Positions 3,811 through 30,267 of a DNA stretch of 30,267 nt are shown here, one piece after another. Every line of letters begins with the position of its first letter. Position 1 is the first letter of the stretch. The stretch is from the UHGV virus genome UHGV-0229465; one strand, given 5' to 3'. The DNA is from a virus. A program made the translations under genes and the position numbers. A model generated the notes under the pieces. That model worked only from the letters and a program-made list of their open reading frames with translations, had not been told where the DNA came from and made no database searches.

Positions 3811-4226
3811 GTGATCGTGTCATTGAATGCGCCTCCAGAGTGGGGCGCGACTTCTCAGAGTTCATGAAAGGCGAGAAGGGCATGATGGAAGCATTGGCCT
3901 CGGTGGATGAGTTTGGCGAGCAGCTGCGTCTCAACGGCTGTGTCAATCATCACTTTGTTAGCTACATGATGCGGAACTCGATCATGCAGGCATTCATGGA
4001 CATGGCAAAAGCCGAGAGGAAAGAAGAGCGCCGGCGTAAGCGAGCGGAAGCAAAAGCGGACCAGCAGCGTACTGAAGAACATGCCGCAGCAACTGAAGCG
4101 GTTGCAGAACGCCGGGTAGAAACAACGAAAGAGGCCAGCAATGTACAGCAGAGTGTTAACCATATGCTTGGCGACGATGTTGATCGTGAGCTGCGCAACA
4201 ACTGGACCCGCCCCGGTAGTCGTTGA
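3807..4226 (+). CDS. Hypothetical protein, charged/helical, no TM segment
   Basis: ATG overlaps KilA-N stop (ATGA); 139 aa, Glu/Arg/Lys-rich C-terminal half; weak RBS. Confidence 0.4.
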   Translation: MSDRVIECASRVGRDFSEFMKGEKGMMEALASVDEFGEQLRLNGCVNHHFVSYMMRNSIMQAFMDMAKAERKEERRRKRAEAKADQQRTEEHAAATEAVAERRVETTKEASNVQQSVNHMLGDDVDRELRNNWTRPGSR

Positions 4227-4371
4227 TACCGCGTGCGATTGGGTTAAGCCTATCTATCTTACTGACCACGATATTTCCGCTATGGATAAACAGATGAAGC
4301 GCGACATCCTGACGCATAACAAAACATGGCAGTCGAACTGTTTGAAGGGAGAAACTGAAATGAAGCAGTAA
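4141..4371 (+). CDS. Predicted lipoprotein (lipobox LIVSC), function unknown
   Basis: AAAGAGG RBS 7 nt upstream of ATG; signal peptide MYSRVLTICLATMLIVSC, two further Cys; gene begins inside the 3' end of 3807-4226 in another frame. Confidence 0.6.
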   Translation: MYSRVLTICLATMLIVSCATTGPAPVVVDTACDWVKPIYLTDHDISAMDKQMKRDILTHNKTWQSNCLKGETEMKQ

Positions 4372-4652
4372 AGCGGACAGACCGCCCTTATAAGCCGCAG
4401 TCATGATGCTGCCCCGAGTCTCAATGAGAGCCAGATGCAGGTCCAAACTGCAATACGCGCTGGTGAGGGTTAACGAAGAAAAAGGCGTACCGGTACTCCA
4501 GAGCGATCGCCAGTCGCTCACCGGTTAGAGGTGAGGGATTCATGAGATACCCCTGACTACAGACTCAAGGGCATGAGCGCGGCCACTGCGAGAGTGTGGT
4601 TTATAACCGCTAAAAAATTTATACTCCATGGGCATTGAGCATGGAGGGTTGA

Positions 4653-5060
4653 ATGAAACTAAATATCGATTATTTAAAGTCGTTCTTAGCTTTATTTTTA
4701 GAATCTGAAAATCCATTTGTTTCGACAGATGAGTTGGCTAAAGCCGGTTACGATATTTCAGATGCTGTTGGATATTTTCACTACACCCAGCTAATTGAAA
4801 AAGGATTCGTGAGTACCTTGGATCTCAGGACGGGCAACCCAAAAGAGTTGGGATTAGTATTTTCTACAAATAGCATCACAAGCTGGTCTACTAACATCAG
4901 GCTAACTTCAAGCGGATATGATTTTGCATTGTCATTAAGTAAGCCGGATGTTTTTGAAAGATTGAAAGAGTTGAGCAATGAACCCATCGGGGTTTTGAAG
5001 GATGTTGGTGTTGAATTGCTTAAGTCTTATGCCAAGAAGAAGCTTGGTTTATCTGATTAG
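4653..5060 (+). CDS. Hypothetical protein encoded by an AT-rich moron
   Basis: 135-aa ORF with GGAGGG RBS, much lower GC than flanks, own terminator downstream; no family recognised. Confidence 0.6.
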   Translation: MKLNIDYLKSFLALFLESENPFVSTDELAKAGYDISDAVGYFHYTQLIEKGFVSTLDLRTGNPKELGLVFSTNSITSWSTNIRLTSSGYDFALSLSKPDVFERLKELSNEPIGVLKDVGVELLKSYAKKKLGLSD

Positions 5061-6102: not shown

Positions 6103-7832
6103 GCCGGAAATCTTACCCCAACGTAAATGCTGCCAATCAGTATGCCCGGGATGTCGTGCGCGGAAAGATTGTGGCCTGCCAGTTTGTGATTCAGGCCTGC
6201 CAGCGCCATCTTGATGACCTGATGGCGGAAAAAAGTAAGTCGTTTCGTTACCGCTTCGACAAGGACCTGGCTGAACGGGCCGCCAAATTTATTCAGCTGT
6301 TGCCGCACACCAAGGGTGAGTGGGCATTTAAGAGGATGCCCATCACGCTGGAGCCGTGGCAGCTCTTTGTGATCTGCTGCGCGTTTGGCTGGGTCAATAA
6401 AGGCTCCCGGCTGCGTCGCTTCCGTGAGGTGTATACCGAAATCCCCCGTAAGAACGGCAAATCGGCAATCTCTGCCGGTGTCGCCCTGTATTGTTTTGCC
6501 TGTGATAACGAGTTCGGCGCGGAAGTGTATTCCGGTGCCACGACGGAGAAACAGGCATGGGAAGTCTTTCGTCCGGCAAGACTGATGTGTAAACGCACAC
6601 CCATGCTGACGGAAGCGTTCGGGATTGAGGTTAACGCCTCAAACATGAACCGTCCGGAGGATGGTGCGCGTTTTGAACCGCTGATCGGTAACCCCGGTGA
6701 TGGTTCATCACCCCACTGTGCGGTGGTGGATGAATATCACGAGCACGCCACAGATGCGCTTTACACCACGATGCTTACCGGGATGGGGGCGCGACGTCAG
6801 CCACTGATGTGGGCTATCACTACCGCCGGGTACAACATTGAGGGGCCGTGCTACGACAAACGGCGGGAAGTCATCGAGATGCTCAACGGCTCGGTGCCTA
6901 ACGATGAACTGTTCGGGATCATCTATACCGTTGATGAAGGTGACGACTGGACCGACCCGCAGGTGCTGGAAAAAGCCAATCCAAATATTGGCGTGTCGGT
7001 TTATCGCGAATTTTTGTTAAGTCAGCAGCAGCGTGCGAAAAATAACGCCCGTCTGGCAAACGTCTTTAAAACAAAACACCTCAATATCTGGGTGTCGGCG
7101 CGTTCGGCGTATTTCAATCTGGTGAGCTGGCAGAGCTGCGAGGATAAATCATTGACCATTGAGCAGTTCGAGGGGCAACCGTGCATTCTGGCCTTTGACC
7201 TGGCGCGTAAGCTGGATATGAACAGTATGGCGCGACTTTATACCCGCGAGATTGACGGTAAAACGCATTACTACAGTGTGGCTCCGCGCTTCTGGGTACC
7301 GTATGACACGGTGTACAGCGTCGAGAAAAATGAAGATCGCCGGACAGCCGAACGCTTTCAGAAATGGGTGGAAATGGGCGTTCTGACCGTTACCGCTGGT
7401 GCGGAGGTGGATTATCGCTACATCCTCGAGGAGGCCAAAGCGGCGAACAAAATCAGTCCGGTCAGTGAGTCACCCATCGACCCCTTCGGGGCGACCGGGT
7501 TGTCACATGACCTTGCTGATGAAGACCTGAACCCCATCACTATCATTCAGAACTACACCAACATGTCCGACCCGATGAAAGAGCTGGAAGCGGCAATTGA
7601 ATCGGGGCGCTTTCATCATGATGGCAATCCCATCATGACCTGGTGTATCGGCAACGTGGTCGGCAAAACCATTCCGGGTAACGATGATGTGGTGAAGCCC
7701 GTCAAAGAGCAGGCGGAAAACAAAATTGACGGTGCAGTTGCGCTGATTATGGCGGTTGGCAGAGCCATGCTGTACGAGAAAGAAGACACGCTGCCTGACC
7801 ACATTGAGTCCTATGGGATCCGCTCGCTTTAA
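6099..7832 (+). CDS. Terminase large subunit
   Basis: 577-aa ORF between terS and portal; ATPase and nuclease-domain character; position and size. Confidence 0.85.
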
Positions 7833-7843
7833 CTGAGGTAATT

Positions 7844-8026
7844 ATGATCATGCTGATTCTCGCGCCTCTGGTGGGCGTGCTGGGGGCGCTTTTGCTGGCG
7901 TATGGTGCCTGGCTGATTTATCCCCCGGCGGGGTTTGTTGTTGCCGGGGCGTTGTGCCTGTTCTGGTCGTGGCTGGTGGCGCGATATCTCGACCGTACAC
8001 AGCTGTCTGTTGGTGGAGGTAAATAG
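7844..8026 (+). CDS. Small two-TM membrane protein, hypothetical
   Basis: 60-aa ORF with GAGGT RBS; two hydrophobic helices; lies between terL and portal. Confidence 0.4.
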
Positions 8027-9266
8027 TGTTCTTTTCGGGATTATTTCAACGAAAAAGTGACGCACCGGTGACCACGCCAGCAGAGCTGGCGGATGCCATC
8101 GGGTTGTCCTACGACACCTATACCGGAAAGCAGATCAGCAGTCAGCGGGCCATGCGACTGACGGCGGTTTTTTCCTGCGTCAGAGTGCTGGCAGAGTCGG
8201 TCGGGATGTTGCCCTGCAATCTGTATCACCTGAACGGCAGCCTGAAGCAGAGAGCCACCGGCGAACGTCTGCATAAACTGATCTCCACGCATCCCAATGG
8301 CTATATGACGCCGCAGGAGTTCTGGGAGCTGGTGGTCACCTGTCTGTGCCTGAGGGGAAATTTTTACGCCTACAAAGTGAAAGCATTTGGCGAAGTGGCT
8401 GAACTGCTGCCCGTCGACCCCGGTTGTGTGGTACCGAAGCTTAACAGTAGCTGGGAACCGGTTTACCAGGTCACATTCCCGGACGGCTCCACGGATGTAC
8501 TGAGCCAGGAAGATATCTGGCATGTGCGCACGCTGACGCTGGACGGACTGGTGGGGCTGAATCCCATCGCCTATGCCCGCGAGGCAATATCGCTGGCGGC
8601 AGCGACCGAAGAGCACGGGCCAGACTGTTCAGCAATGGCGCGGTGACGTCGGGTGTGTTGCGTACAGAGCAGACGCTGTCAGATCAGGCTTACGAGCGCC
8701 TGAAGAAAGATTTTGAGGAGCGTCACACCGGGCTTGGTAATGCTCACCGCCCGATGATCCTTGAGATGGGGCTGGACTGGAAGTCGATGGCGCTGAACGC
8801 CGAGGACAGCCAGTTCCTGGAAACCCGCAAGTTTCAGCTTGAAGAAATCTGTCGTCTGTTCCGGGTGCCGTTGCACATGGTGCAGAACACCGATCGCGCC
8901 ACCTTCAACAATATTGAAGAGCTGGGGCTGGGATTTATCAACTATTCACTGGTGCCGTATCTGACCCGCATCGAGCAGCGGATCAACACCGGACTGGTTC
9001 GAAAAAGTAAGCAGGGCGTTTATTACGCCAAATTTAACGCCGGGGCGTTACTGCGCGGGGATATGAAGTCCCGTTTTGAAGCCTACGCCACCGGGATTAA
9101 CTGGGGAATTTACTCTCCCAATGACTGCCGCGACCTGGAAGATATGAATCCGCGTCCCGGTGGGGATGTCTATCTCACACCGATGAACATGACCACGAAA
9201 CCCTCCGATGGCAGTAAAGCCGGTAAGCAGAAGGATAACGCCAATGCAGACGAAACAACGTCTTGA
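8026..9266 (+). pseudogene. Portal protein (HK97 family) interrupted by a frameshift near 8617-8620
   Basis: Two adjacent ORFs (8026-8646 and 8643-9266, different frames) together give a ~413-aa portal; frames overlap across 8451-8646, and the join ..AATEEHG | ARLFSNGAVTSGVL falls at a GGG run (8617-8619). Confidence 0.7.
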
Positions 9267-22499: not shown

Positions 22500-23074
22500 C
22501 AAACGATGATTACATCCGTCTGTTGTCGGCACTGCTGCCCCCTGGTCCGGCGTGGTCAGCCAGCGATCCGGCGATTGCCGGTGCAGCACCGTCATTAACC
22601 CGCGTTCATCAGCGTGCGGATGCCCTGATGCGGGAGCTGGATCCGCGCACCACCACTGAACTGATAAACCGCTGGGAGCGTCTGTGCGGCCTGCCGGATG
22701 AATGTATTCCGGCGGGAACGCAGACCCTTCGCCAGCGTCAGCAACGGCTGGATGCGAAGGTTAATCTGGCGGGCGGCATCAATGAGGATTTTTACCTTGC
22801 ACAGCTTGCTGCCCTGGGCAGACCAGACGCCACCATCACGCGATACGATAAAAGCACGTTCACCTGCTCATCGGCCTGTACTGACGCAGTGAATGCGCCG
22901 GAATGGCGGTATTACTGGCAGGTCAACATGCCAGCCGCCACCAACACCACCTGGATGACATGTGGCGATCCCTGTGATTCCGCACTGCGTATCTGGGGCG
23001 ACACCGTTGTCGAGTGTGTGCTTAACAAACTCTGCCCGTCGCATACCTACGTAATTTTTAAATATCCGGAGTAA
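22490..23074 (+). CDS. Tail protein (Mu gp48 / e14 YmfQ-like)
   Basis: 194 aa; directly precedes the tail-fibre gene as in e14 and Mu-like tails. Confidence 0.75.
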
Positions 23075-23077
23075 TCC

Positions 23078-23725
23078 ATGCATCGTATAGACACGAAAAC
23101 CGCGCAGAAGGATAAGTTCGGCGCGGGTAAGAACGGTTTTACCCGTGGTAACCCCCAGACCGGCACGCCAGCCACCGATCTGGATGATGACTACTTTGAC
23201 ATGTTGCAGGAGGAGCTTTGCAGCGTGGTGGAGGCATCCGGTGCCAGCCTGGAGAAGGGGCGGCACGACCAGTTGCTTACCGCGCTTCGTGCGCTGCTGT
23301 TAAGTCGCAAGAATCCGTTTGGCGATATCAAATCGGATGGCACGGTGAAAACAGCTCTCGAAAACCTTGGTTTGGGAGAAGCGGCAAAGAGGAATGTGGG
23401 GACAGGAGAAAATCAGGTACCGGATATGAACAGCTTTGGTAACTCATTGACCGCCAATGGATACCAGAAATTACCTGGGGGGATGATTATTCAATGGGGG
23501 AGTTTTTCTGTCTCACCAACCGGAGGAAGTGTTGGAACAGTTGATATAACATTACCTGTAGCTTTCCCTGCTGCTTGTCGTTCGGTAAACGCTCTTATTT
23601 CAACTAATGATCCTTCTGCCCGTTCTGTGGGCTTTGATATTGGAAGTACCAACAGAACTAAAATCAGATTTACTTACACTTCTGCTACAACAAATTCAAT
23701 TTACTGGATTGCTGTGGGGTATTAA
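23078..23725 (+). CDS. Tail fibre protein: constant N-terminus fused to the currently expressed variable C-terminus (Sv)
   Basis: GGAG RBS; crossover site lies inside the gene at codons ..LENLGLGE..; downstream part is AT-richer than the constant part. Confidence 0.8.
23355..23380. repeat. Invertase crossover site (gix/pix/hix-like), left
   Basis: ctctcgaaaaccttggtttgggagaa is an imperfect 26-bp palindrome resembling the recalled hix/gix consensus; inverted copy at 25213-25238 shares the 14-bp ttggtttgggagaa. Confidence 0.7.
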
Positions 23726-23727
23726 CT

Positions 23728-24159
23728 ATGGAAAAGACATATTATTTTAATCCCTCTGATTCGGGATTTTATATTTCACCAGATAGCCAAACCATTCCTG
23801 AGAACGCTACGAAAATAAACTTTACTATTTATTCTGAGTTCGCAGGAGTTGCATGGCCTGATGGTAAAATACTTGGTTCAGATAAAAATGGTTTTCCAGC
23901 ATGGCAGGATGCGCCACCACTTACCAGCGAAGAATTAATCTCAATCGCTGAATCAAATAAACAGCGATTAGTTAATCAGGCCAACGAATACATGAACAGT
24001 AAACAATGGCCTGGTAAAGCGGCGATTGGTCGTCTGAAAGGTGAGGAACTGGCGCAATATAATTTGTGGCTGGATTATCTGGACGCACTGGAACTGGTCG
24101 ATACTTCCAGTGCGCCAGATATTGAATGGCCTACTCCTCCGGCAGTTCAGGCCAGATGA
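23728..24159 (+). CDS. Tail fibre assembly protein (paired with the expressed fibre tip)
   Basis: 143 aa immediately after the fibre gene; C-terminus ..LWLDYLDALELVDTSSAPDIEWP typical of tail-fibre assembly proteins. Confidence 0.75.
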   Translation: MEKTYYFNPSDSGFYISPDSQTIPENATKINFTIYSEFAGVAWPDGKILGSDKNGFPAWQDAPPLTSEELISIAESNKQRLVNQANEYMNSKQWPGKAAIGRLKGEELAQYNLWLDYLDALELVDTSSAPDIEWPTPPAVQAR

Positions 24160-24733
24160 CATCCGGCGCGGTACTGGTATCTGTTGCCGTCACCGCGTCA
24201 ATGTAATCCAGCACAGTGTTAAGTCGGGTGGTCTCTGCCTGCATCAGCTTCCGCCCGGCCTGCAATTTCAGTTGAATCAGACTAATGGAAGCCATTGCAG
24301 TATCAATCAGTGACTGACGTTGTGCTTCTGCCGCGTCTACTGCGGCGCTATGCTGTGTCTCAGTATCCGTCACCCATTTCTCACCATCCCATTTATCGTA
24401 TGGCGTTAACGGGGCGATAGTGGTTGTTTTTTCGGGGTAATCACCCGGAGTTGTGATTTCTTTGGCGTCTCCCGTTTCGGTGTTATAGACGATTTCACCG
24501 CGATGGTCTGGTACATATTCCCATGAGTTAAAATCTGCAGAGCGGCAGATTGCATAACCAGCTTTGTAGGTGCCTGGAGCATCTAAACAGGAATATGCCG
24601 GAATGCCGACACCAACAGCAAGATATTCAGTTGAAGCTGAAATATACTCCCGACTCATGACGTCAAAGTTATAAACAGTGATTTCTCCTGCCATAGTGGC
24701 AATTAATTCACTGTTTAATTCTGCGTTATTCAT
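24131..24733 (-). CDS. Tail fibre assembly protein, alternative copy (inverted orientation)
   Basis: 200 aa on - strand converging on the + strand copy; C-terminus ..LDYIDAVTATDTSTAPDVIWPELP parallels it. Confidence 0.75.
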   Translation of the reverse strand: MNNAELNSELIATMAGEITVYNFDVMSREYISASTEYLAVGVGIPAYSCLDAPGTYKAGYAICRSADFNSWEYVPDHRGEIVYNTETGDAKEITTPGDYPEKTTTIAPLTPYDKWDGEKWVTDTETQHSAAVDAAEAQRQSLIDTAMASISLIQLKLQAGRKLMQAETTRLNTVLDYIDAVTATDTSTAPDVIWPELPEE

Positions 24734-25266
24734 TATGCAGCCCTCACAATATAGTTAAAAGCGACATTTCGTGGGCGTGTTTCATTCGCACCTGCAGGTT
24801 TAGTCGTTGCCGCAACAACACCACCCTCTGTAATAGCCGGGTTGGGAATTGGGTAATTATCGAAGTCAATGGCTGGAGACAGGGGCGTGATTTGTTTTAA
24901 AATCGTGGTGCCTGTAAAACTTCCCAGAGTCTGGTCGTTAGTTCGTGAAGTCCAGATTCCCCAATAGTGGTTATGACTGACAATCGCACCGTCCTGAAGC
25001 GTTAATAATCCCCTTCCGTTATCCACTCCACGTCCGTCATCCCAGCCACGAATAAACTCACCGCGTAAATCAGGTAATTTATTTGTCGGATAAGCCTTTG
25101 CCAGTTCCGGGTATTCTTCAGCAGAAAAAGCTGCTCCGTTGCATTTCAGCCAGCCTGTTGGCGGAGTGGCTGAAGGCCACGGAACAGGCACACCAACGGG
25201 TAATGCTGAGCCTTCTCCCAAACCAACGTTTATGAAAATGTAGAAATAACGAGCAAATGGCATCAT
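24733..25266 (-). CDS. Alternative tail-fibre variable C-terminal cassette (Sv'), silent in current orientation
   Basis: - strand ORF with receptor-binding-tip motifs (..LPDLRGEFIRGWDDGRGVDNGRG..); its 5' end contains the right crossover site encoding ..INVGLGEG.., in frame with the constant fibre part after inversion. Confidence 0.7.
   Translation of the reverse strand: MMPFARYFYIFINVGLGEGSALPVGVPVPWPSATPPTGWLKCNGAAFSAEEYPELAKAYPTNKLPDLRGEFIRGWDDGRGVDNGRGLLTLQDGAIVSHNHYWGIWTSRTNDQTLGSFTGTTILKQITPLSPAIDFDNYPIPNPAITEGGVVAATTKPAGANETRPRNVAFNYIVRAA
25213..25238. repeat. Invertase crossover site, right
   Basis: ttctcccaaaccaacgtttatgaaaa; reverse complement matches the left site over its right half; 55 bp upstream of the invertase start. 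Confidence 0.7.
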
Positions 25267-25292
25267 TCCTGCTTTTGTCAGGGAGATCTACC

Positions 25293-25631
25293 ATGCTTAT
25301 TGGCTATGTACGTGTGTCAACAAATGACCAGAACACAGATCTACAACGTAATGCGCTGAACTGTGCAGGATGCGAGCTGATTTTTGAAGACAAGATAAGC
25401 GGTACAAAGTCCGAAAGGCCTGGACTGAAAAAACTGCTCAGGACATTATCGGCAGGTGATACGCTGGTGGTCTGGAAACTGGACCGACTGGGGCGCAGTA
25501 TGCGGCATCTTGTCGTGCTGGTGGACGAAGATTTAGAGCATGAGTTAATTAATGGCGGTTTGTCCCACTATTGTGGTTGGTATCCCCATAGAACAGGGCA
25601 AGATATAGTTGTTCATCATGTTCACTCATAA
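25293..25631 (+). pseudogene. Serine DNA invertase (Pin/Gin/Hin/Cin family), truncated: catalytic N-terminus only
   Basis: GGGAG RBS; MLIGYVRVSTNDQNTDLQRNAL...LVVWKLDRLGRSM matches recalled Gin/Pin N-terminus with catalytic Ser; similarity is lost after ~residue 85 and the ORF stops at 112 aa (family ~185-190 aa), where AT-rich DNA begins. Confidence 0.7.
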
Positions 25632-26031
25632 GCAGAACTTCGGTGCTTGGCGTTATATTGAACCTTCTGAGGGATTCTGAGGATGAGTGGAATGTCGCGT
25701 TCTGATTCATCAGTAAGTAGGGAAAGATAGACTTTATGCGTCATTGACGGTGAAAGCGGCTATACATAGAAACTACCGACCAGCATCAGCCTGAAAATAT
25801 AGGCAGATAGAAAAAGTGGTCCGCACTTGCAACTAATGTTAAACCGTTTGTAGATATTGTGCTTCGGGTACAATTCTGTCCTATCGTTGCACTTAGCTAA
25901 CTACTCTATATTTAATGCATTGTAATAAAGATATAAAAGTTGTAGTGTTGAGGGTCCAATTGCACATAAGAGTGCAAATTTGAGTTTGGCCGTAGGCTAA
26001 TGATGAGAGTATAAGTTGGATTGGGTGCACT

Positions 26032-27129
26032 ATGAAGAAAAAAATAGCAGATCTACTAGCCGTTAAAACAAATATATTCGAAGTGTTCATTGTTGCGGTA
26101 TTAATTGCCTTGGGCGTAAATATACTGTCATCAGGCGTTGTTGGTTATTTTAACTTGTCATTTTTGAAAATGATTGTTGTTGGTGCGCTACTAATAATTT
26201 TAGGTGCCACAATCTTTCTGCGTAACGCCTATCCTATGAATAATGGGAAATATGATTTTGAGGGGGTTGTGTGTTTAGACAATGAAAAAAAAGAGTTGAT
26301 ATCAATTGAAGGCTACGATTTTTCCGAAGAGGTTAGCCGTTACCTAAAAGGATTATGCGCGGAAAATAAGGCTATTCATAAATCATGGACTGAGGGGCCA
26401 ATTGGTTATGCTTTTGATTTTAAAGGGAAGGGGATAAATAGCAAAAAAATGAAAGCAAATGCACTATTTATCGAGGCGATTGAGTATTATGTTTTAAGAA
26501 AACTTGCTCTTCATTTAAGTAGCTATTTTAATGATGATGAATCTTTTTCCGATGATTATTTGGTTAAACTAGATAGGAAAAGTATTCCTGATGTTCTTAT
26601 GGGGAATAGATTTATTGATACTTTTTCTAGAGCTATGGATGAACGTGAGCAATTTATGGATTATAGTTCTTTACCATCTATAGGTAAAGTTGTATATGCA
26701 TATGGCAATGGAGGCGCAATTTTTGACCATTTTGAAATAGTTCTTCCCAAAAGTAGTTCGCTCACAAGAGAGAGCGACTCTAGTATAAGTATTGTTACTA
26801 AAAGATTTAAGATTAATTATCGCCCTGTGTTCGAGGGATTCGGGGCTAATCTACCAATGAAATTTGGAAATCTTTATTTGGGTAGAGAGTTTAATTCATT
26901 TTCAACTTATTCAGTAGGTTTGGTAGTTACAGTGGATTTTAATGCCAAGTCTTTATTAACAACTAAGGGATGGGAATATTATTGGTGGCTTGATTCGTTT
27001 TTGGGAGAATTGGAACAATCATTTTCTAAAAAAATGTTTTTATCTAAAATATCTTGGGAGCAAAATGCAGCAATGTTTCTTATGCTTGAAAATAAGAGTA
27101 AAATGCAGCACAAGAGAGAGAATTTTTAG
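26032..27129 (+). CDS. Membrane-anchored hypothetical protein (two N-terminal TM helices, ~300-aa cytoplasmic domain)
   Basis: 365-aa ORF in very AT-rich DNA; promoter-like TTGGCC-18 bp-TATAAG upstream; Lys-rich N-terminus then two hydrophobic helices; no recognisable catalytic motif. Confidence 0.6.
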   Translation: MKKKIADLLAVKTNIFEVFIVAVLIALGVNILSSGVVGYFNLSFLKMIVVGALLIILGATIFLRNAYPMNNGKYDFEGVVCLDNEKKELISIEGYDFSEEVSRYLKGLCAENKAIHKSWTEGPIGYAFDFKGKGINSKKMKANALFIEAIEYYVLRKLALHLSSYFNDDESFSDDYLVKLDRKSIPDVLMGNRFIDTFSRAMDEREQFMDYSSLPSIGKVVYAYGNGGAIFDHFEIVLPKSSSLTRESDSSISIVTKRFKINYRPVFEGFGANLPMKFGNLYLGREFNSFSTYSVGLVVTVDFNAKSLLTTKGWEYYWWLDSFLGELEQSFSKKMFLSKISWEQNAAMFLMLENKSKMQHKRENF

Positions 27130-28074
27130 ACAAATAAAAGCAGTCTAAATATCTACATACAGGAAAATGTTCGCATCTGTCTAATGGTGAACAATAGTGG
27201 CTGTAAAAGCTGTAATTTGGGTTCGCTATGTGCTGCATGCATCGGTTGGGCTCACTGCTTATAACAGACATTAATTTTATGACAGAAAGACATTCATGCT
27301 AGTTGGAATATGCATAAAACTCCCTCTACACTGTGTTTGTATACAGTATTATTTTACTGTGCAAATAAGCAGCATTATTGTTTTCTCTGTTCAAGTAAAA
27401 AGAAATGGATACACTCACAAAGATTTTGATGGTGGCACGATAAGTGTCTTCGTTTTTATGAGAGCAGTTGTTGTGGCTTCATCACTAGTACTTAGCATCA
27501 AGACTGATTTCTTGCTGTTGGTTCAAGTACTTTATCCCATAAAAGCCCACATCTGTGGGCTTTCAAGTCACTAGGGCACCGCGGCTCCTTTGCGTATCTT
27601 TTTTTGTATCCTCACCGTCTGGTCGGTGTCCTGCTTTGGCTGCTAACTTGCTGTTTTTGTTGGAATTATCCTTACGCCACCCAATCATGATTGGTGGAGC
27701 TGGCGGGAGTTGAAACCGCAGGCACGTCGTATGCAAGAACGTGCTGCGGTTGGCTGGTGAACTTCCAATAGTGCGAGTATTGAATGATTTCCAGCTGTTA
27801 TAGATTTTACGTATTTTTTGTATGAGAGGATTTGCATCTCCTCCCACCGATCCTCCATGACTTTACTCCACTGTCTATAGGGCTGCTGTGTGCTAGAAAC
27901 GGACATTTTGGTCAACTGAGGGCATGGAAACTTGTTCAATAAATAACGTATAATCAATTGAAAATAAAATGAAATAATTGTAATATCAAAATTCAAAGCC
28001 CGTAGTGAGTATGATTATCTATTCTTAATTTCAACCTCTTAATTCTAAATAAGTTAGACAAATCGGAATGGCAG

Positions 28075-28716
28075 ATGAAAATTAAGTTAACACCAATCTG
28101 GTTATGGATAAAACAATATCAACATCCCCTTAGAGTATTGGGGGGGATTTTTTTCGGGGCCGCTTTGATAGCAGCTTTTTTTTGGATATCAGGATTTGAT
28201 ATAGAACCTATCGCATTCGCTCTGGGAATGCTTAGTTCATTGTTCTTAGCCAGCCCATCGGTAGCAGAATATTTTTTACCAGAACGTAAACCTGTCAGAG
28301 ATATGACATATGAGGAAATCTTAAATTTCATACCCAAAACTGAACCATCTCAAGATTGGCATGGGATTTCAAGGGAATGGGCTAGCGAACGATTCCTTAA
28401 AGAAGACCCACGTCTTCGTTTTCGAGCCAAGTTCATTGATGAAGGAATTCAATGTGAAAATTTTATAGAAGATTGGGCTAACAATCATCCAGATCCCAGA
28501 GCAACTGGATATTGGTATGAGCTTTATTACGACGGAGCATTCCTAGACAGGTTTTTATTGGTATCTGTGGATGGCGGTAGAGCGGATATTCCTCCACCAA
28601 AATTACAAACTAAAGAAATTAGCTTACTCAATTATCATGTTGCGAAAATACATGACACCTCTGGCACGTTAGATGAGTATATTAAACGATCTGGTTTAAC
28701 TATTGCAAAAACATAA
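28075..28716 (+). CDS. Membrane-anchored hypothetical protein (two TM helices, ~150-aa C-terminal domain)
   Basis: 213-aa ORF, AT-rich; helices at ~20-40 and ~45-63; convergent with the next gene. Confidence 0.55.
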   Translation: MKIKLTPIWLWIKQYQHPLRVLGGIFFGAALIAAFFWISGFDIEPIAFALGMLSSLFLASPSVAEYFLPERKPVRDMTYEEILNFIPKTEPSQDWHGISREWASERFLKEDPRLRFRAKFIDEGIQCENFIEDWANNHPDPRATGYWYELYYDGAFLDRFLLVSVDGGRADIPPPKLQTKEISLLNYHVAKIHDTSGTLDEYIKRSGLTIAKT

Positions 28717-28788
28717 TAAGTAACTATTCATTTTTGTCCTGAGCGGGAGGATTAAAACCTCCGCTCTCCGATTCATCACTACAGAGTA

Positions 28789-29547
28789 TTAACATTCATG
28801 ATGCTTAATTTCCAGATCGGAAATTGCAATCATTCTTATTTCTTTCAATGCACTATCAATTGCTAATCTTATTCTTTGCCCATAATCATCTGGTTCTTCA
28901 TAATCCAGTGGAGACGGTTCTAAGCCAATATTTTCGACTAACTCCTCTAATTTTATAGTTACATCAGTATTCAAAAGAATTGCTTTTGTTATTAATATTT
29001 CAGTTAACGATATCATTGCAATGCTTAATTTTTGTTGTAATTCTTTGTTTTTAGTTTGGACGTCTTTATCATTCATTGAGTTCTCAATATCTGCTTGAGC
29101 CTGCTGAATTTCTTGGTAAAATTGTTTTTCTTGCTCTTCATTAAAATATGGCTGGTAACTGCTTGCAATCCATCCTGGAATCATATGAAGTTCAATTATA
29201 TGAAATTCATTGTCTGCCCATTTTTTAATTGCTAGCAATTGTGCATAGATGAATTCATACATATCATATTTTTTTTGCCAAATTTGTTGAGAGATCCATA
29301 TCTCAGATGTTATTTTTTTCTCTATATCTTTAATAGTAACTGTGTTTATAGATAATTGTTCCCGTAGGGTTTCGAAGTTAGAATTGGTTGCAGAAATTTT
29401 AGCCCATTCTGTAATTATTGAAACTAGGAAACTCATTGCTAGGGCTGCGATAACTACGGCGAGACTTAACCAGATAATTTCTGCTGTCGAGAAATTTGAT
29501 GACTGTAATGCCTTAATAAGATCAAGCAATTGCTTTTCTGTAAGCAC
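28789..29547 (-). CDS. Membrane-anchored hypothetical protein (one TM helix, helical/coiled-coil C-terminal domain)
   Basis: 252-aa ORF on - strand; GTG start with GGGGAG RBS; one hydrophobic helix near residues 22-46 then Glu/Gln/Lys-rich helical region. Confidence 0.55.
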   Translation of the reverse strand: MLTEKQLLDLIKALQSSNFSTAEIIWLSLAVVIAALAMSFLVSIITEWAKISATNSNFETLREQLSINTVTIKDIEKKITSEIWISQQIWQKKYDMYEFIYAQLLAIKKWADNEFHIIELHMIPGWIASSYQPYFNEEQEKQFYQEIQQAQADIENSMNDKDVQTKNKELQQKLSIAMISLTEILITKAILLNTDVTIKLEELVENIGLEPSPLDYEEPDDYGQRIRLAIDSALKEIRMIAISDLEIKHHEC

Positions 29548-29949
29548 AGGTTACTCCCCAAAAAATATTTGTTATGATTCAATTGATTACGCTAGGTTTT
29601 CTATTGTTCAAACAAAAAATAAAACACCACTGTACACCCATCAAAATTATATGGATAGATTCTTTATAGCAAAATTATGATCTGACAACATGATATGGTT
29701 CGAAGATGTTTTTATGGTAGAAAGGTATGCATGTAGGGTATAGGAGGTCGTGAAAGAAAAGAAGACTTCTGTACAGTTTGTCATCACGTTTATCTTCATC
29801 GGCTATGCAAGTCGTAATACAAGGTGGGACAAAACTGAGACACATAAGGCCTCACAATGGCTTGCAAGGCTTTACATGTTTTGATGTGGTGGGACGTGTG
29901 AGCGCAGTGTTGATGGGGTAATTCTTTGAATTAGAAACGGATTCTTATA

Positions 29950-29995
29950 ATTCGTAATGCGAAGGTCGTAGGTTCGACTCCTATTATCGGCACCA
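29950..29995 (+). other. Partial tRNA-Thr(CGU) (anticodon loop to CCA end) = prophage attachment core, attR
   Basis: attcgtaatgcgaaggtcgtaggttcgactcctattatcggcacca matches the recalled 3' portion of enterobacterial tRNA-Thr (T-arm GGTTCGACTCC, acceptor TATCGGCACCA); the 5' half is absent upstream and GC composition changes here. Confidence 0.75.
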
Positions 29996-30121
29996 TTAAA
30001 ATCAAAGAGTTACCCCATATTTAAATACACCACGTTTCCTCCTGTGCCGCATTTGTGCCATTGTAACCTTGGCAATTCATCAAAATACTGTTCTGACATC
30101 AGGCAGTGCAGGTGCAGCTAT

Positions 30122-30265
30122 TTAAACCAATTGCTGCCGCCATTCTTTGACGTAGTCAATCAGGGCGCGGAGCTTTGGTGCAATATTGCGACGCTGTGGG
30201 AAATACAGATAGAAGCCCGGAAATTGTGGAAGAAAGTCATCAAGCAGCGATACAAGCTTACCGCT
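30122..30265 (-). CDS. LysR-type transcriptional regulator, C-terminal fragment (chromosomal flank)
   Basis: - strand ORF open to the window edge, ending ...IAPKLRALIDYVKEWRQQLV*; typical LysR C-terminal character; outside the prophage. Confidence 0.45.
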   Translation of the reverse strand, partial: SGKLVSLLDDFLPQFPGFYLYFPQRRNIAPKLRALIDYVKEWRQQLV

Positions 30266-30267
30266 TT

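What the first reader, a model, noticed from the sequence alone, without database searches (positions are those of the whole stretch)
28075..29547. Convergent pair of membrane-anchored proteins sharing a hairpin
A 213-aa 2TM protein (+) and a 252-aa 1TM helical protein (-) converge on a 26-nt hairpin (28741-28766, gagcgggagg-attaaaa-cctccgctc) with no T-run on either side. This is a compact two-gene unit beside the att site. Convergent membrane pairs could be toxin/immunity or sensor/effector modules, but I cannot assign either protein to a family.
Basis: inference. Interest (0 to 1): 0.65.

Follow-up and report, generated by a model that had tools for sequence, protein, structure and literature searches.

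The report
Two separate prophage membrane cargo genes
The two converging membrane-protein genes are real and travel together as a small mobile DNA unit at the end of an E. coli prophage. Each is also found alone in many other genomes, so they look like two independent, probably anti-phage, cargo genes rather than a toxin/immunity pair, and the hairpin between them is a decayed scrap of a tRNA gene.

Summary

The window is the right end of an e14-like E. coli prophage. A 1.83-kb AT-rich unit (27880-29708) fills the slot between pin and att, where E. coli K-12 e14 carries mcrA.

The unit recurs at about 91% nucleotide identity in three further, unrelated contexts. Both genes are under purifying selection.

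Beyond that one clade the genes never co-occur:
- Gene A relatives (45-75% identity, seven phyla) are solo, and several are single-gene integron cassettes.
- Gene B relatives (63-85% identity, Enterobacterales and Aeromonas) are solo or have other neighbours.

Gene A encodes a membrane hairpin plus a cytoplasmic domain of about 135 aa. That domain matches no Pfam or PDB entry. Elsewhere it is fused to TIR, SEFIR or SIR2 effectors, and it forms the core of the PADLOC candidate PDC-S50. A is most likely a single-protein abortive-infection-type defence gene.

Gene B is an orphan membrane-anchored helical protein of unknown function, found in cargo hotspots.

The hairpin is the decayed T-arm of a tRNA-Pro (proL) 3' fragment that always follows B.

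The toxin/immunity or sensor/effector reading is not supported. Nothing here is experimentally tested.

The parts
27880..29708 (.). The A-B cargo unit: an AT-rich (31-41% GC) block that moves as one piece
   Evidence: About 91.4% nucleotide identity over 1825-1835 bp to L044, L045/L046 and L060, each with different flanks. GC profile. Sister E. coli prophages match only outside it, at 27713-27898 and 29712-29950.
27925..27954 (+). Promoter-like site upstream of gene A (TGGAAA-18-TATAAT, 10 of 12 matches)
   Evidence: Consensus scan. It lies inside the conserved unit. Function not tested.
28075..28716 (+). Gene A, 213 aa: membrane hairpin plus cytoplasmic alpha/beta domain
   Evidence: ORF. 139 homologues at 45-93% identity. 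AlphaFold pLDDT 92.7. No hit in Pfam, NCBIfam or PDB.
28135..28266 (+). Codons 21-64 of A: two transmembrane helices, predicted N-in/C-in
   Evidence: Kyte-Doolittle peaks at 21-39 and 46-64. K+R count is 4 in the N-tail, 0 in the loop and 3 after TM2. Helices 16-38 and 44-67 in the model.
28303..28713 (+). Codons 77-213 of A: the shared domain of about 135 aa (signature LVSVDGGRAxLPxP, WAN, DPRLR)
   Evidence: 904 representative proteins at E<1e-3. The domain occurs alone or C-terminal to TIR, SEFIR, SIR2 or TM modules. It matches PADLOC PDC-S50 profile positions about 182-272.
28717..28788 (-). 72-bp spacer: decayed 3' part of tRNA-Pro (proL) following the stop codon of B
   Evidence: In B-sense it aligns to proL positions 40-82 with 30 of 42 identical. 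Score 29 against shuffles with mean 12.3, sd 2.0 and maximum 23 of 2000. It is in the same register after the B stop as the 98%-identical proL fragment in Klebsiella and Citrobacter.
28741..28766 (.). The hairpin: relic of the proL T-arm (GGAGG-TTCAAAT-CCTCT has become GGAGG-TTTTAAT-CCTCC)
   Evidence: Retained in the other copies of the unit with changes at the bulge and one G-C to G-U change.
28789..29547 (-). Gene B, 252 aa: N-terminally membrane-anchored, all-helical orphan protein
   Evidence: ORF. 69 homologues, all in Enterobacterales or Aeromonas and all unnamed. No consistent Pfam hit. Model pLDDT 65.
29659..29688 (-). Promoter-like site upstream of gene B (TTGTCA-18-AAGAAT, 9 of 12 matches)
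   Evidence: Consensus scan. It lies inside the conserved unit. Function not tested.
29709..29949 (.). att-proximal sequence of the prophage backbone, not part of the unit
   Evidence: Shared with 3563 of 5426 E. coli genomes and with lambdoid and SfIV-type phages near their att regions.
29950..30000 (+). 3' fragment of tRNA-Thr: the att repeat at the prophage right end
   Evidence: 100% identity to annotated tRNA-Thr genes. ARAGORN finds no full tRNA. The chromosomal yagP' and pao genes follow.

Best explanation
SETTING (shown). The segment is a small horizontally mobile cargo unit. It sits in the variable slot between the pin invertase and the att site of an e14-like prophage integrated at thrW. 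It holds two genes that each work on their own.

GENE A. It encodes an inner-membrane helical hairpin with both ends in the cytoplasm, fused to a cytoplasmic domain of about 135 aa.
- Shown: in relatives, this domain is the common C-terminal module behind interchangeable effector domains (CAP12/Pycsar-type TIR, SEFIR/TIR_2, SIR2, one or two TM helices), and it also exists alone.
- Inferred: A is a single-protein abortive-infection-type defence. The C-terminal domain detects an infection cue in the cytoplasm. Detection drives oligomerisation of the membrane hairpins. The inner membrane is then permeabilised or depolarised, which stops the infected cell from producing phage.

GENE B. It encodes an orphan membrane-anchored helical protein.
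- Shown: it is a recurrent occupant of cargo and defence hotspots of prophages, P4-like satellites and ICEs in Enterobacterales and Aeromonas.
- Inferred, weakly: it is a second, independent membrane-level exclusion or defence factor. Its mechanism is unknown.

HAIRPIN. It was not built as a device shared by the two genes. It is the decayed T-arm of a tRNA-Pro (proL) 3' fragment, an old attachment-site scar, which sits directly after the stop codon of B wherever B is found (shown). By position it probably ends or stabilises the B transcript and incidentally the A transcript (inferred).
For: CONTEXT
- The baseplate, YmfQ, invertible tail-fibre and pinE genes precede the unit; a thrW fragment and the pao genes follow it.
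- In E. coli K-12 e14 the same pinE-to-att slot holds mcrA. In a sister prophage it holds a TrlF-family ATPase.

THE UNIT MOVES
- About 91% identity over 1.83 kb in four contexts.
- dN/dS is 0.18 for A and 0.19 for B.

THE GENES ARE INDEPENDENT
- None of 26 GTDB loci with A has B, and no neighbour is conserved across them.
- A is solo in a Proteus P4-like satellite, in Aeromonas veronii and in a phage-like contig.
- A relatives lie between attC repeats next to IntI (TIGR02249, 428-495 bits) with cassette spacings of 724-774 bp.
- B is solo or with other neighbours in nine further contexts.
- One E. coli genome has a frameshifted B with an intact A.

ARCHITECTURE OF A
- pLDDT 92.7; topology by the positive-inside rule.
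- 904 representative relatives. Of the best 150: 65 are the domain alone, 45 have a TM N-terminus and 29 have a soluble N-terminus.
- 14 of 20 soluble-N-terminus members hit the CAP12/Pycsar TIR family and 2 hit SEFIR/TIR_2.
- One relative matches PADLOC bSEFIR at 1.8e-76, and one carries SIR2 with LmuA/ThsA-like matches.
- PDC-S50 matches the domain in A (6e-4) and in relatives (down to 4e-10).
- Integron cassettes are a documented reservoir of defence genes (bioRxiv 10.64898/2026.03.17.712381, read).

HAIRPIN
-.
Against: - No experiment, and no match to a validated defence protein for A itself. PDC-S50 is only a candidate, and the hit covers only about 90 residues.
- The fold of the domain has no significant match in the PDB or among viral models, so 'sensor' is inferred only from domain architecture.
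- The commonest relatives are the domain alone, which a simple sensor-plus-effector picture does not explain.
- The repeated co-transfer of A with B, the conserved 72-bp spacing and the equal dS values are also what a functional pair would show at shallow depth.
- B has no informative homology at all, and its model is poor.
- The frameshift in B lies in an A8 run and could be a sequencing error.
Confidence: 0.55

Rival explanations
1. A and B are a two-component system in this lineage, either toxin/immunity or sensor/effector. One membrane protein controls or neutralises the other, and the convergent arrangement with a shared stem-loop couples their expression.
For: The 1.83-1.92 kb unit with both genes, both upstream regions and an exactly 72-bp spacer is kept in four unrelated contexts. 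dS is similar (0.17-0.21) and both genes are under purifying selection. Both proteins are membrane-anchored.
Against: All copies of the pair are one shallow clade. All A homologues at 75% identity or less, and all B homologues at 85% or less, are unpaired. A is a single-gene integron cassette elsewhere. B is a solo insertion in Aeromonas. No analogous membrane partner sits next to solo copies. An intact A sits beside a frameshifted B in one complete genome. The spacer belongs to the B flank in every context, with or without A.
Confidence: 0.15
2. One or both proteins are classical prophage superinfection-exclusion or lysogenic-conversion factors. They would act at the inner membrane to block DNA entry of incoming phages without killing the cell, rather than act as abortive-infection effectors.
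For: Both are inner-membrane proteins encoded next to att in the position where thrW-integrating Shigella phages carry conversion genes and e14 carries mcrA. B is restricted to Enterobacterales and Aeromonas and is nearly always on prophages, satellites or ICEs. That fits a host-range-specific exclusion function.
Against: For A: the same C-terminal domain is fused to the cytoplasmic cell-killing enzymes TIR, SEFIR and SIR2. The family spans seven phyla at 45-70% identity, which argues against a receptor-specific or injection-specific block. For B there is no evidence against this reading.
Confidence: 0.17
3. The genes are cargo unrelated to phage defence, for example membrane stress, colonisation or an inter-bacterial competition function, or are selfish passengers with no benefit to the host.
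For: No validated defence homologue for either full-length protein. Guilt by association with hotspots is indirect.
Against: The A domain is fused to TIR, SEFIR and SIR2. B neighbours are repeatedly defence-type genes: SNIPE/T5orf172, RnlAB, AbiH, a faint HEPN_AbiU2 match and DUF262. A occurs in the integrase-proximal cargo region of a P4-like satellite. Both genes are under purifying selection.
Confidence: 0.1

Closest known systems
PADLOC phage-defence candidate PDC-S50 (single-gene candidate; not validated, to my knowledge)
   Same: The C-terminal domain of A and of its relatives matches profile positions about 182-272 of the 387-position PDC-S50 model. E is 6e-4 for A and down to 4e-10 for relatives.
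   Different: Only about 90 residues match. The N-terminal 180 and C-terminal 110 profile positions are not matched. A has a membrane hairpin instead. No paper in the library mentions PDC-S50.
Membrane-spanning effectors of signalling defence systems (Pycsar PycTM, CBASS 2TM effectors; own knowledge of these families)
   Same: Same logic: N-terminal TM helices as the killing module, joined to a C-terminal cytoplasmic ligand-binding or sensor module. The same sensor is also found on TIR-type effectors of the CAP12/Pycsar kind.
   Different: No cyclase, and no conserved neighbour of any kind, accompanies A. The C-terminal domain is not a cNMP-binding, SAVED or STING domain (no Pfam hit). A would have to sense the infection directly.
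bSEFIR single-gene defence (PADLOC model PDLC03957)
   Same: A relative (P0307) matches bSEFIR at 1.8e-76 over residues 1-327 and carries the A-type domain at residues 332-460.
   Different: A itself has no SEFIR/TIR domain. The A-type domain lies beyond the part of P0307 that matches the bSEFIR profile.
The pinE-mcrA-icd' end of the E. coli K-12 e14 element
   Same: Same tail and invertase module (ymfQ, tail fibre, tfaE, pinE), followed by one cargo slot and then the att fragment. In e14 the slot holds the restriction gene mcrA.
   Different: This prophage is at thrW, not icd. The slot holds the A-B unit, and pinE is truncated by another insertion.
Defence genes carried as integron cassettes (Kieffer et al. 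2025 and Darracq et al. 2025, as cited in bioRxiv 10.64898/2026.03.17.712381)
   Same: A homologues in Pseudomonas mangrovi and Vibrio jasicida are single ORFs between attC repeats, and IntI lies near A in L005, L019, L021 and L025.
   Different: The window copy is not in an integron. No published cassette could be matched to this family with the tools at hand.

Membership tests
Toxin/immunity or toxin-antitoxin gene pair | The two genes co-occur across homologues and evolutionary depth | tested here: not met
   The pair is seen only in one clade (A at least 93%, B at least 91% identical). About 30 A-only and about 30 B-only loci lie outside that clade.
Toxin/immunity or toxin-antitoxin gene pair | Loss of the protective partner is not tolerated while the toxin is intact | tested here: inconclusive
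   FDAARGOS_1337 has an A8-to-A7 frameshift in B with A 100% intact. This is a single case in a homopolymer and could be a sequencing error.
PADLOC PDC-S50 | Full-length match to the PDC-S50 profile | tested here: not met
   Only residues 92-183 of A match profile positions 184-272 of 387, at E = 6e-4. The domain is shared; the family architecture is not.
CBASS/Pycsar-type TM effector | An adjacent nucleotide cyclase or CD-NTase gene | tested here: not met
   All-against-all clustering of ORFs in 26 loci found no conserved neighbour apart from IntI in six loci.
CBASS/Pycsar-type TM effector | A recognised nucleotide-binding sensor domain (cNMP-binding, SAVED, STING) | tested here: not met
   No Pfam family at E up to 1 for A, and none shared by the 69 family members.
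SLATT-type 2TM effector domains (Pfam SLATT_1-6) | Match to a SLATT profile | tested here: not met
   No SLATT hit for A or for any of 69 relatives.
Integron gene cassette | A single ORF bounded by attC sites in an array next to intI | tested here: not met
   Met for homologues: L019 has attC repeats at 7913-7985 and 8637-8709 with IntI at 3875-4879, and L007 has flanking attC-type repeats. Not met for the window copy, which has no attC and no intI.
Rho-independent (intrinsic) terminator | A GC-rich stem-loop followed by a T-run | tested here: not met
   The stem is present, but there is no T-run on either strand and the terminator scan does not list it.
tRNA gene (tRNA-Pro) | A complete cloverleaf | tested here: not met
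   ARAGORN finds nothing. Only the T-arm, acceptor 3' strand and trailing A-run are recognisable, with 30 of 42 identical to proL.
Abortive-infection single-protein defence (effector plus sensor) | Protection against phage with death or growth arrest of the infected cell | not testable with these tools
   Needs plaque and liquid-infection assays. Only domain architecture and genomic context support it.

The most novel reading that the evidence does not exclude
The C-terminal domain of A (about 135 aa, signature VDGGRAxLPxP) is an unnamed, very widespread infection-sensing module: 904 clusters at 50% identity, across at least seven phyla. Bacteria attach it to interchangeable killing modules (TIR, SEFIR, SIR2, membrane hairpins). 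Gene A would be its minimal membrane-disrupting form, spread by integrons, satellites, prophages and small plasmids. In addition, the A-B block would be a non-autonomous mobile cassette bounded by 72-nt palindromic repeats that shuttles defence genes between chromosomes and prophages.
Probability: 0.35. Interest if true: 0.6.

Novelty: new member of a known kind. Interest (0 to 1): 0.42.

Why it matters
If A protects against phage on its own, it would turn a computational candidate domain (PDC-S50-like, absent from Pfam) into a defined sensor module shared by TIR, SEFIR, SIR2 and membrane effectors. It would also provide a small, 213-aa model for asking what that module recognises.

The case is also a useful caution. 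A tight convergent gene pair that moves as one unit need not be one system. Here, comparison at greater evolutionary depth separates the two genes.

The tRNA-Pro scar after B, and the tmRNA-like fragment after the neighbouring gene C, illustrate how prophage ends collect 'gene plus att scar' cargo.

Tried and rejected
SEARCHES THAT FOUND NOTHING USEFUL
- Pfam, NCBIfam and PHROGs for A, B and C gave nothing usable. Family-wide Pfam scans gave only scattered noise. That noise includes weak Acb2/Tad1-hairpin hits in 5 of 35 B homologues (best E 0.0036), which I do not trust.
- Rfam on 25200-30267 gave only a sub-threshold CssrB hit.
- tblastn of A and B against 50,697 phage genomes gave no match.
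- A PDB sequence-profile search gave nothing.
- Literature searches for PDC-S50, the two WP accessions, and bSEFIR with a C-terminal sensor domain found no paper. A search on the term 'phage defence candidate' returned papers, but none specific to PDC-S50.

STRUCTURE COMPARISONS
- Foldseek against the PDB and BFVD gave nothing below E = 0.05.
- The afdb50 library was unavailable.
- The B model was too poor (pLDDT 65) to search.
- A co-fold of A with B could not be run.

IDEAS CONSIDERED AND DROPPED
- A and C are paralogues: BLASTP E = 1.3.
- The 251-aa gene before Proteus A, or the 212-aa and 373-aa genes after Proteus B, are analogues of the missing partner: they are unrelated soluble proteins.
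- The sequence after B is a type II tRNA variable arm: it is the anticodon arm of proL.
- The hairpin is significant by folding energy: it is not.
Full report
WHAT IS THERE

Gene A runs 28075-28716 on the plus strand (213 aa). Gene B runs 28789-29547 on the minus strand (252 aa, GTG start). They converge on a 72-bp spacer. That spacer holds the stem-loop gagcg-g-gagg / attaaaa / cctc-cgctc at 28741-28766, with no T-run on either side.

By folding energy the spacer is unremarkable, with z = -0.9 and -1.2 against dinucleotide shuffles.

A has two hydrophobic segments, at residues 21-39 and 46-64. It has four K/R in the N-tail, none in the short loop and three after the second segment, so both ends should be cytoplasmic. 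B has one strong TM segment at 27-45.

WHERE IT IS

The window is the right end of an E. coli prophage. Baseplate genes, ymfQ, an invertible tail-fibre segment and a truncated pinE precede the region. The chromosomal yagP' and paoDCBA genes follow it.

Window 29950-30000 is 100% identical to the 3' end of tRNA-Thr, and no complete tRNA is present.

Only 7 of 5426 complete E. coli genomes carry the A-B segment. By contrast, 3563 genomes carry the att-proximal 240 bp next to it.

In E. coli K-12 e14, the same module order is ymfQ, tail fibre, tfaE, pinE, then mcrA, then the icd' att fragment. A sister prophage has a TrlF-family AAA ATPase in that position. The pin-to-att interval is thus a variable cargo slot that elsewhere holds defence genes. 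The A-B segment is AT-rich, at 31-41% GC against about 50% for the tail genes.

THE PAIR MOVES AS A UNIT, BUT ONLY IN ONE SHALLOW CLADE

Looking up close relatives gave a result I did not expect after the first neighbourhood survey. A 93%-identical A sits 72 bp from a convergent 252-aa gene among ordinary chromosomal genes in L044. A 91%-identical B sits 72 bp from a convergent 213-aa gene inside a hyc/hyp region in L045 and L046. A 56-kb IMG/VR viral contig, L060/L072, carries both genes again.

The shared DNA is window 27880-29708 at about 91.4% identity, and the flanks are unrelated in all four contexts. Between the window and these copies, dN/dS is 0.18 for A and 0.19 for B. dS is similar for the two genes, at 0.17-0.21. 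Both genes are therefore functional and share a history.

OUTSIDE THAT CLADE THE GENES ARE INDEPENDENT

A profile scan of one genome per GTDB species found 26 loci with A (45-72% identity). They lie in Gammaproteobacteria, Planctomycetota, Acidobacteriota, Bacteroidota, Chloroflexota, Nitrospirales and Verrucomicrobiota. None contains B or C. All-against-all clustering of their ORFs found no conserved neighbour.

The one recurrent neighbour is an integron integrase (TIGR02249, 428-495 bits for the full-length copies). In Pseudomonas mangrovi and Vibrio jasicida, A lies alone between attC-type repeats spaced 724 and 774 bp apart. This means A is a single-gene integron cassette there.

A is also solo in three further places:
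- next to the integrase of a P4-like satellite in Proteus terrae;
- in a phage-like contig;
- in a small Aeromonas veronii islet.

B homologues number 69 in all. Every one is in Enterobacterales or Aeromonas, and every one is unnamed. They occur as follows:
- at prophage ends in Klebsiella and Citrobacter, followed by SRAP, SNIPE/T5orf172, RnlAB or EMARD-type genes and umuDC-like genes;
- with a 373-aa gene in a Proteus prophage and in a P4-like satellite, the latter next to AbiH;
- in a Yersinia ICE-like island;
- next to a DUF262 gene on a Pantoea megaplasmid;
- alone between chromosomal genes in Aeromonas bestiarum;
- on eight further IMG/VR contigs.

None of these loci has A. The genes next to the solo copies are unrelated soluble proteins, not analogues of the missing partner. 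One complete E. coli genome has a frameshift in an A8 run of B with A intact.

WHAT A IS

The family is highly conserved. There are 139 homologues at 45-93% identity, with invariant W95, D111, P112, R115, W134, D166, P173, P175, D194 and Y202. It has no Pfam, NCBIfam or PDB match.

The AlphaFold model is confident (pLDDT 92.7). It shows a TM helical hairpin followed by an alpha/beta domain spanning residues 79-205.

A profile search of 1.84 billion representative proteins found 904 relatives. It showed that residues 77-213 form a separable domain. Of the best 150 relatives:
- 65 are the domain alone;
- 45 have one or two N-terminal TM helices;
- 29 have a soluble N-terminal domain.

The soluble N-terminal domains are CAP12/Pycsar-type TIR in 14 of the 20 scanned, and SEFIR/TIR_2 in 2 of 20. 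One relative matches PADLOC bSEFIR at 1.8e-76. Another carries SIR2 with LmuA/ThsA-like matches. There is also a tandem duplicate of the domain.

HOW A MOST LIKELY WORKS

Shown:
- a membrane hairpin plus a cytoplasmic domain;
- the same domain sits behind interchangeable NAD-degrading or membrane effector modules;
- the gene is self-sufficient enough to be an integron cassette;
- it lives in cargo slots of prophages, satellites and small plasmids.

Inferred: the C-terminal domain senses an infection cue directly, since no signalling enzyme accompanies it. Sensing then triggers oligomerisation of the hairpins and loss of membrane integrity. This is the abortive-infection logic known from Pycsar and CBASS TM effectors (my own knowledge of those systems).

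The abundance of domain-alone relatives is not explained by this picture.

WHAT B IS

B is an orphan. It has an N-terminal amphipathic helix and one TM helix, followed by long helices. The conserved motifs are WISQQxWQKKYDMYE and YEEPDDYG. The model is poor, at pLDDT 65, and family searches give only noise.

Its constant features are its position and its 3' flank. It sits in cargo hotspots, often as the first gene inside a prophage end.

THE HAIRPIN

In Klebsiella and Citrobacter, the B stop codon is followed within a few bases by 54 nt that are 98% identical to the 3' part of E. coli tRNA-Pro proL. This covers the anticodon arm, T-arm, acceptor strand and CCA, and in Citrobacter the sequence after the tRNA also matches.

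In the same register, the window spacer read in B-sense aligns to proL positions 40-82 with 30 of 42 identical. The score is 29 against 12.3 +/- 2.0 for shuffles, with a maximum of 23 in 2000.

The stem-loop is the former T-arm: GGAGG-TTCAAAT-CCTCT has become GGAGG-TTTTAAT-CCTCC, extended by flanking pairs. More decayed versions follow B in Proteus, in the P4-like satellite (L054) and in Pantoea. The hairpin is therefore an old att scar that belongs to the B flank. Everything beyond it varies: A here, and other genes elsewhere.

VERDICT

The 'compact two-gene unit' is real as a mobile piece of DNA. The toxin/immunity or sensor/effector interpretation is not supported by co-occurrence at any depth beyond one recent clade.

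The best reading is two independent accessory genes. A is a new, untested member of the single-protein effector-plus-sensor class of defence genes. B is an uncharacterised hotspot gene.

Confidence is moderate, because no function was tested and the domain has no structural or experimental anchor.

Noticed in passing
window 25294-27898: pinE is cut after about 79 codons (annotated as partial). A segment of about 2.2 kb replaces its 3' part. That segment carries gene C (26032-27129, 365 aa, two TM helices, no family hit in Pfam, NCBIfam, PHROGs or PADLOC) and ends in a stretch (27541-27719) that is 85-89% identical to the ssrA (tmRNA) gene. The normal pinE-downstream sequence resumes at 27713-27898. 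This looks like a second 'gene plus tRNA-type att scar' cargo.
   Followed up: partly
L044:5033-5104 and 6955-7026; L045:5760-5790 and 7640-7677; L060:4760-4790 and 6640-6677; window 27877-27902: Outside E. coli, the A-B unit is bounded by copies or halves of a repeat of about 72 nt. The repeat has two internal palindromes (GTCCGCT-N10-AGCGGAC). There are two full direct copies 1922 bp apart in L044. The unit contains no recombinase. The window keeps only a decayed left half. How the unit moves is unknown.
   Followed up: partly
window 28303-28305 (codon M77 of gene A): M77 is invariant in 69 homologues and coincides with residue 1 of the stand-alone-domain relatives (profile position 80). This raises the possibility of an internal start that also produces a soluble C-terminal domain. 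No clear Shine-Dalgarno sequence lies upstream.
   Followed up: no
window 29268-29275 (A8 run in B-sense, codons 91-93 of B); L002:9372-9375: E. coli FDAARGOS_1337 has A7 instead of A8 here, which frameshifts B while A is 100% identical. This is either a natural loss of B or a homopolymer sequencing error.
   Followed up: yes
L001:3162-5365 versus L002:3163-5365 (window about 23060-25270): The invertible tail-fibre segment is in opposite orientations in strains RX24 and FDAARGOS_1337, even though the adjacent pinE is truncated in both. Inversion must either predate the truncation or be catalysed in trans by another Pin-type invertase.
   Followed up: no
window 29712-29950: The att-proximal 240 bp occur in 3563 of 5426 E. 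coli genomes. Parts of it (29750-29884) match phage 21 and lambda-like phages near their int/att regions, and SfIV-type Shigella phages. It is a backbone sequence shared by prophages with different integration sites.
   Followed up: no
L029:6001-8144; L054:5001-7139: B at 82-83% identity is followed in the same direction by the same-sized 373-aa gene, which has no Pfam hit, in two unrelated elements: a Proteus lambdoid prophage end and a P4-like satellite. In the satellite a convergent AbiH gene follows. This may be another recurring B-plus-neighbour combination.
   Followed up: no
L047 (NZ_CP030346.1, 4858 bp), gene 339-830: About 45 small mobilizable plasmids of Enterobacter and Klebsiella, most of those listed being 4.8-5.1 kb, carry a 164-aa protein that is essentially the A-type domain alone (34% identity to A residues 56-210). 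On this plasmid it sits next to an HTH protein gene.
   Followed up: no
L006:579-827: The Marinomonas locus carries a second, partial A-type domain copy (37% identity to A residues 129-210) about 7 kb from the full-length A homologue.
   Followed up: no
L035:5701-5883 and L036:4454-5883: In Klebsiella, B is bracketed by an icd-like 60-aa fragment upstream and the proL fragment downstream. In one genome an integrase and excisionase lie directly before the icd fragment. So B sits between two different att-type scars.
   Followed up: no
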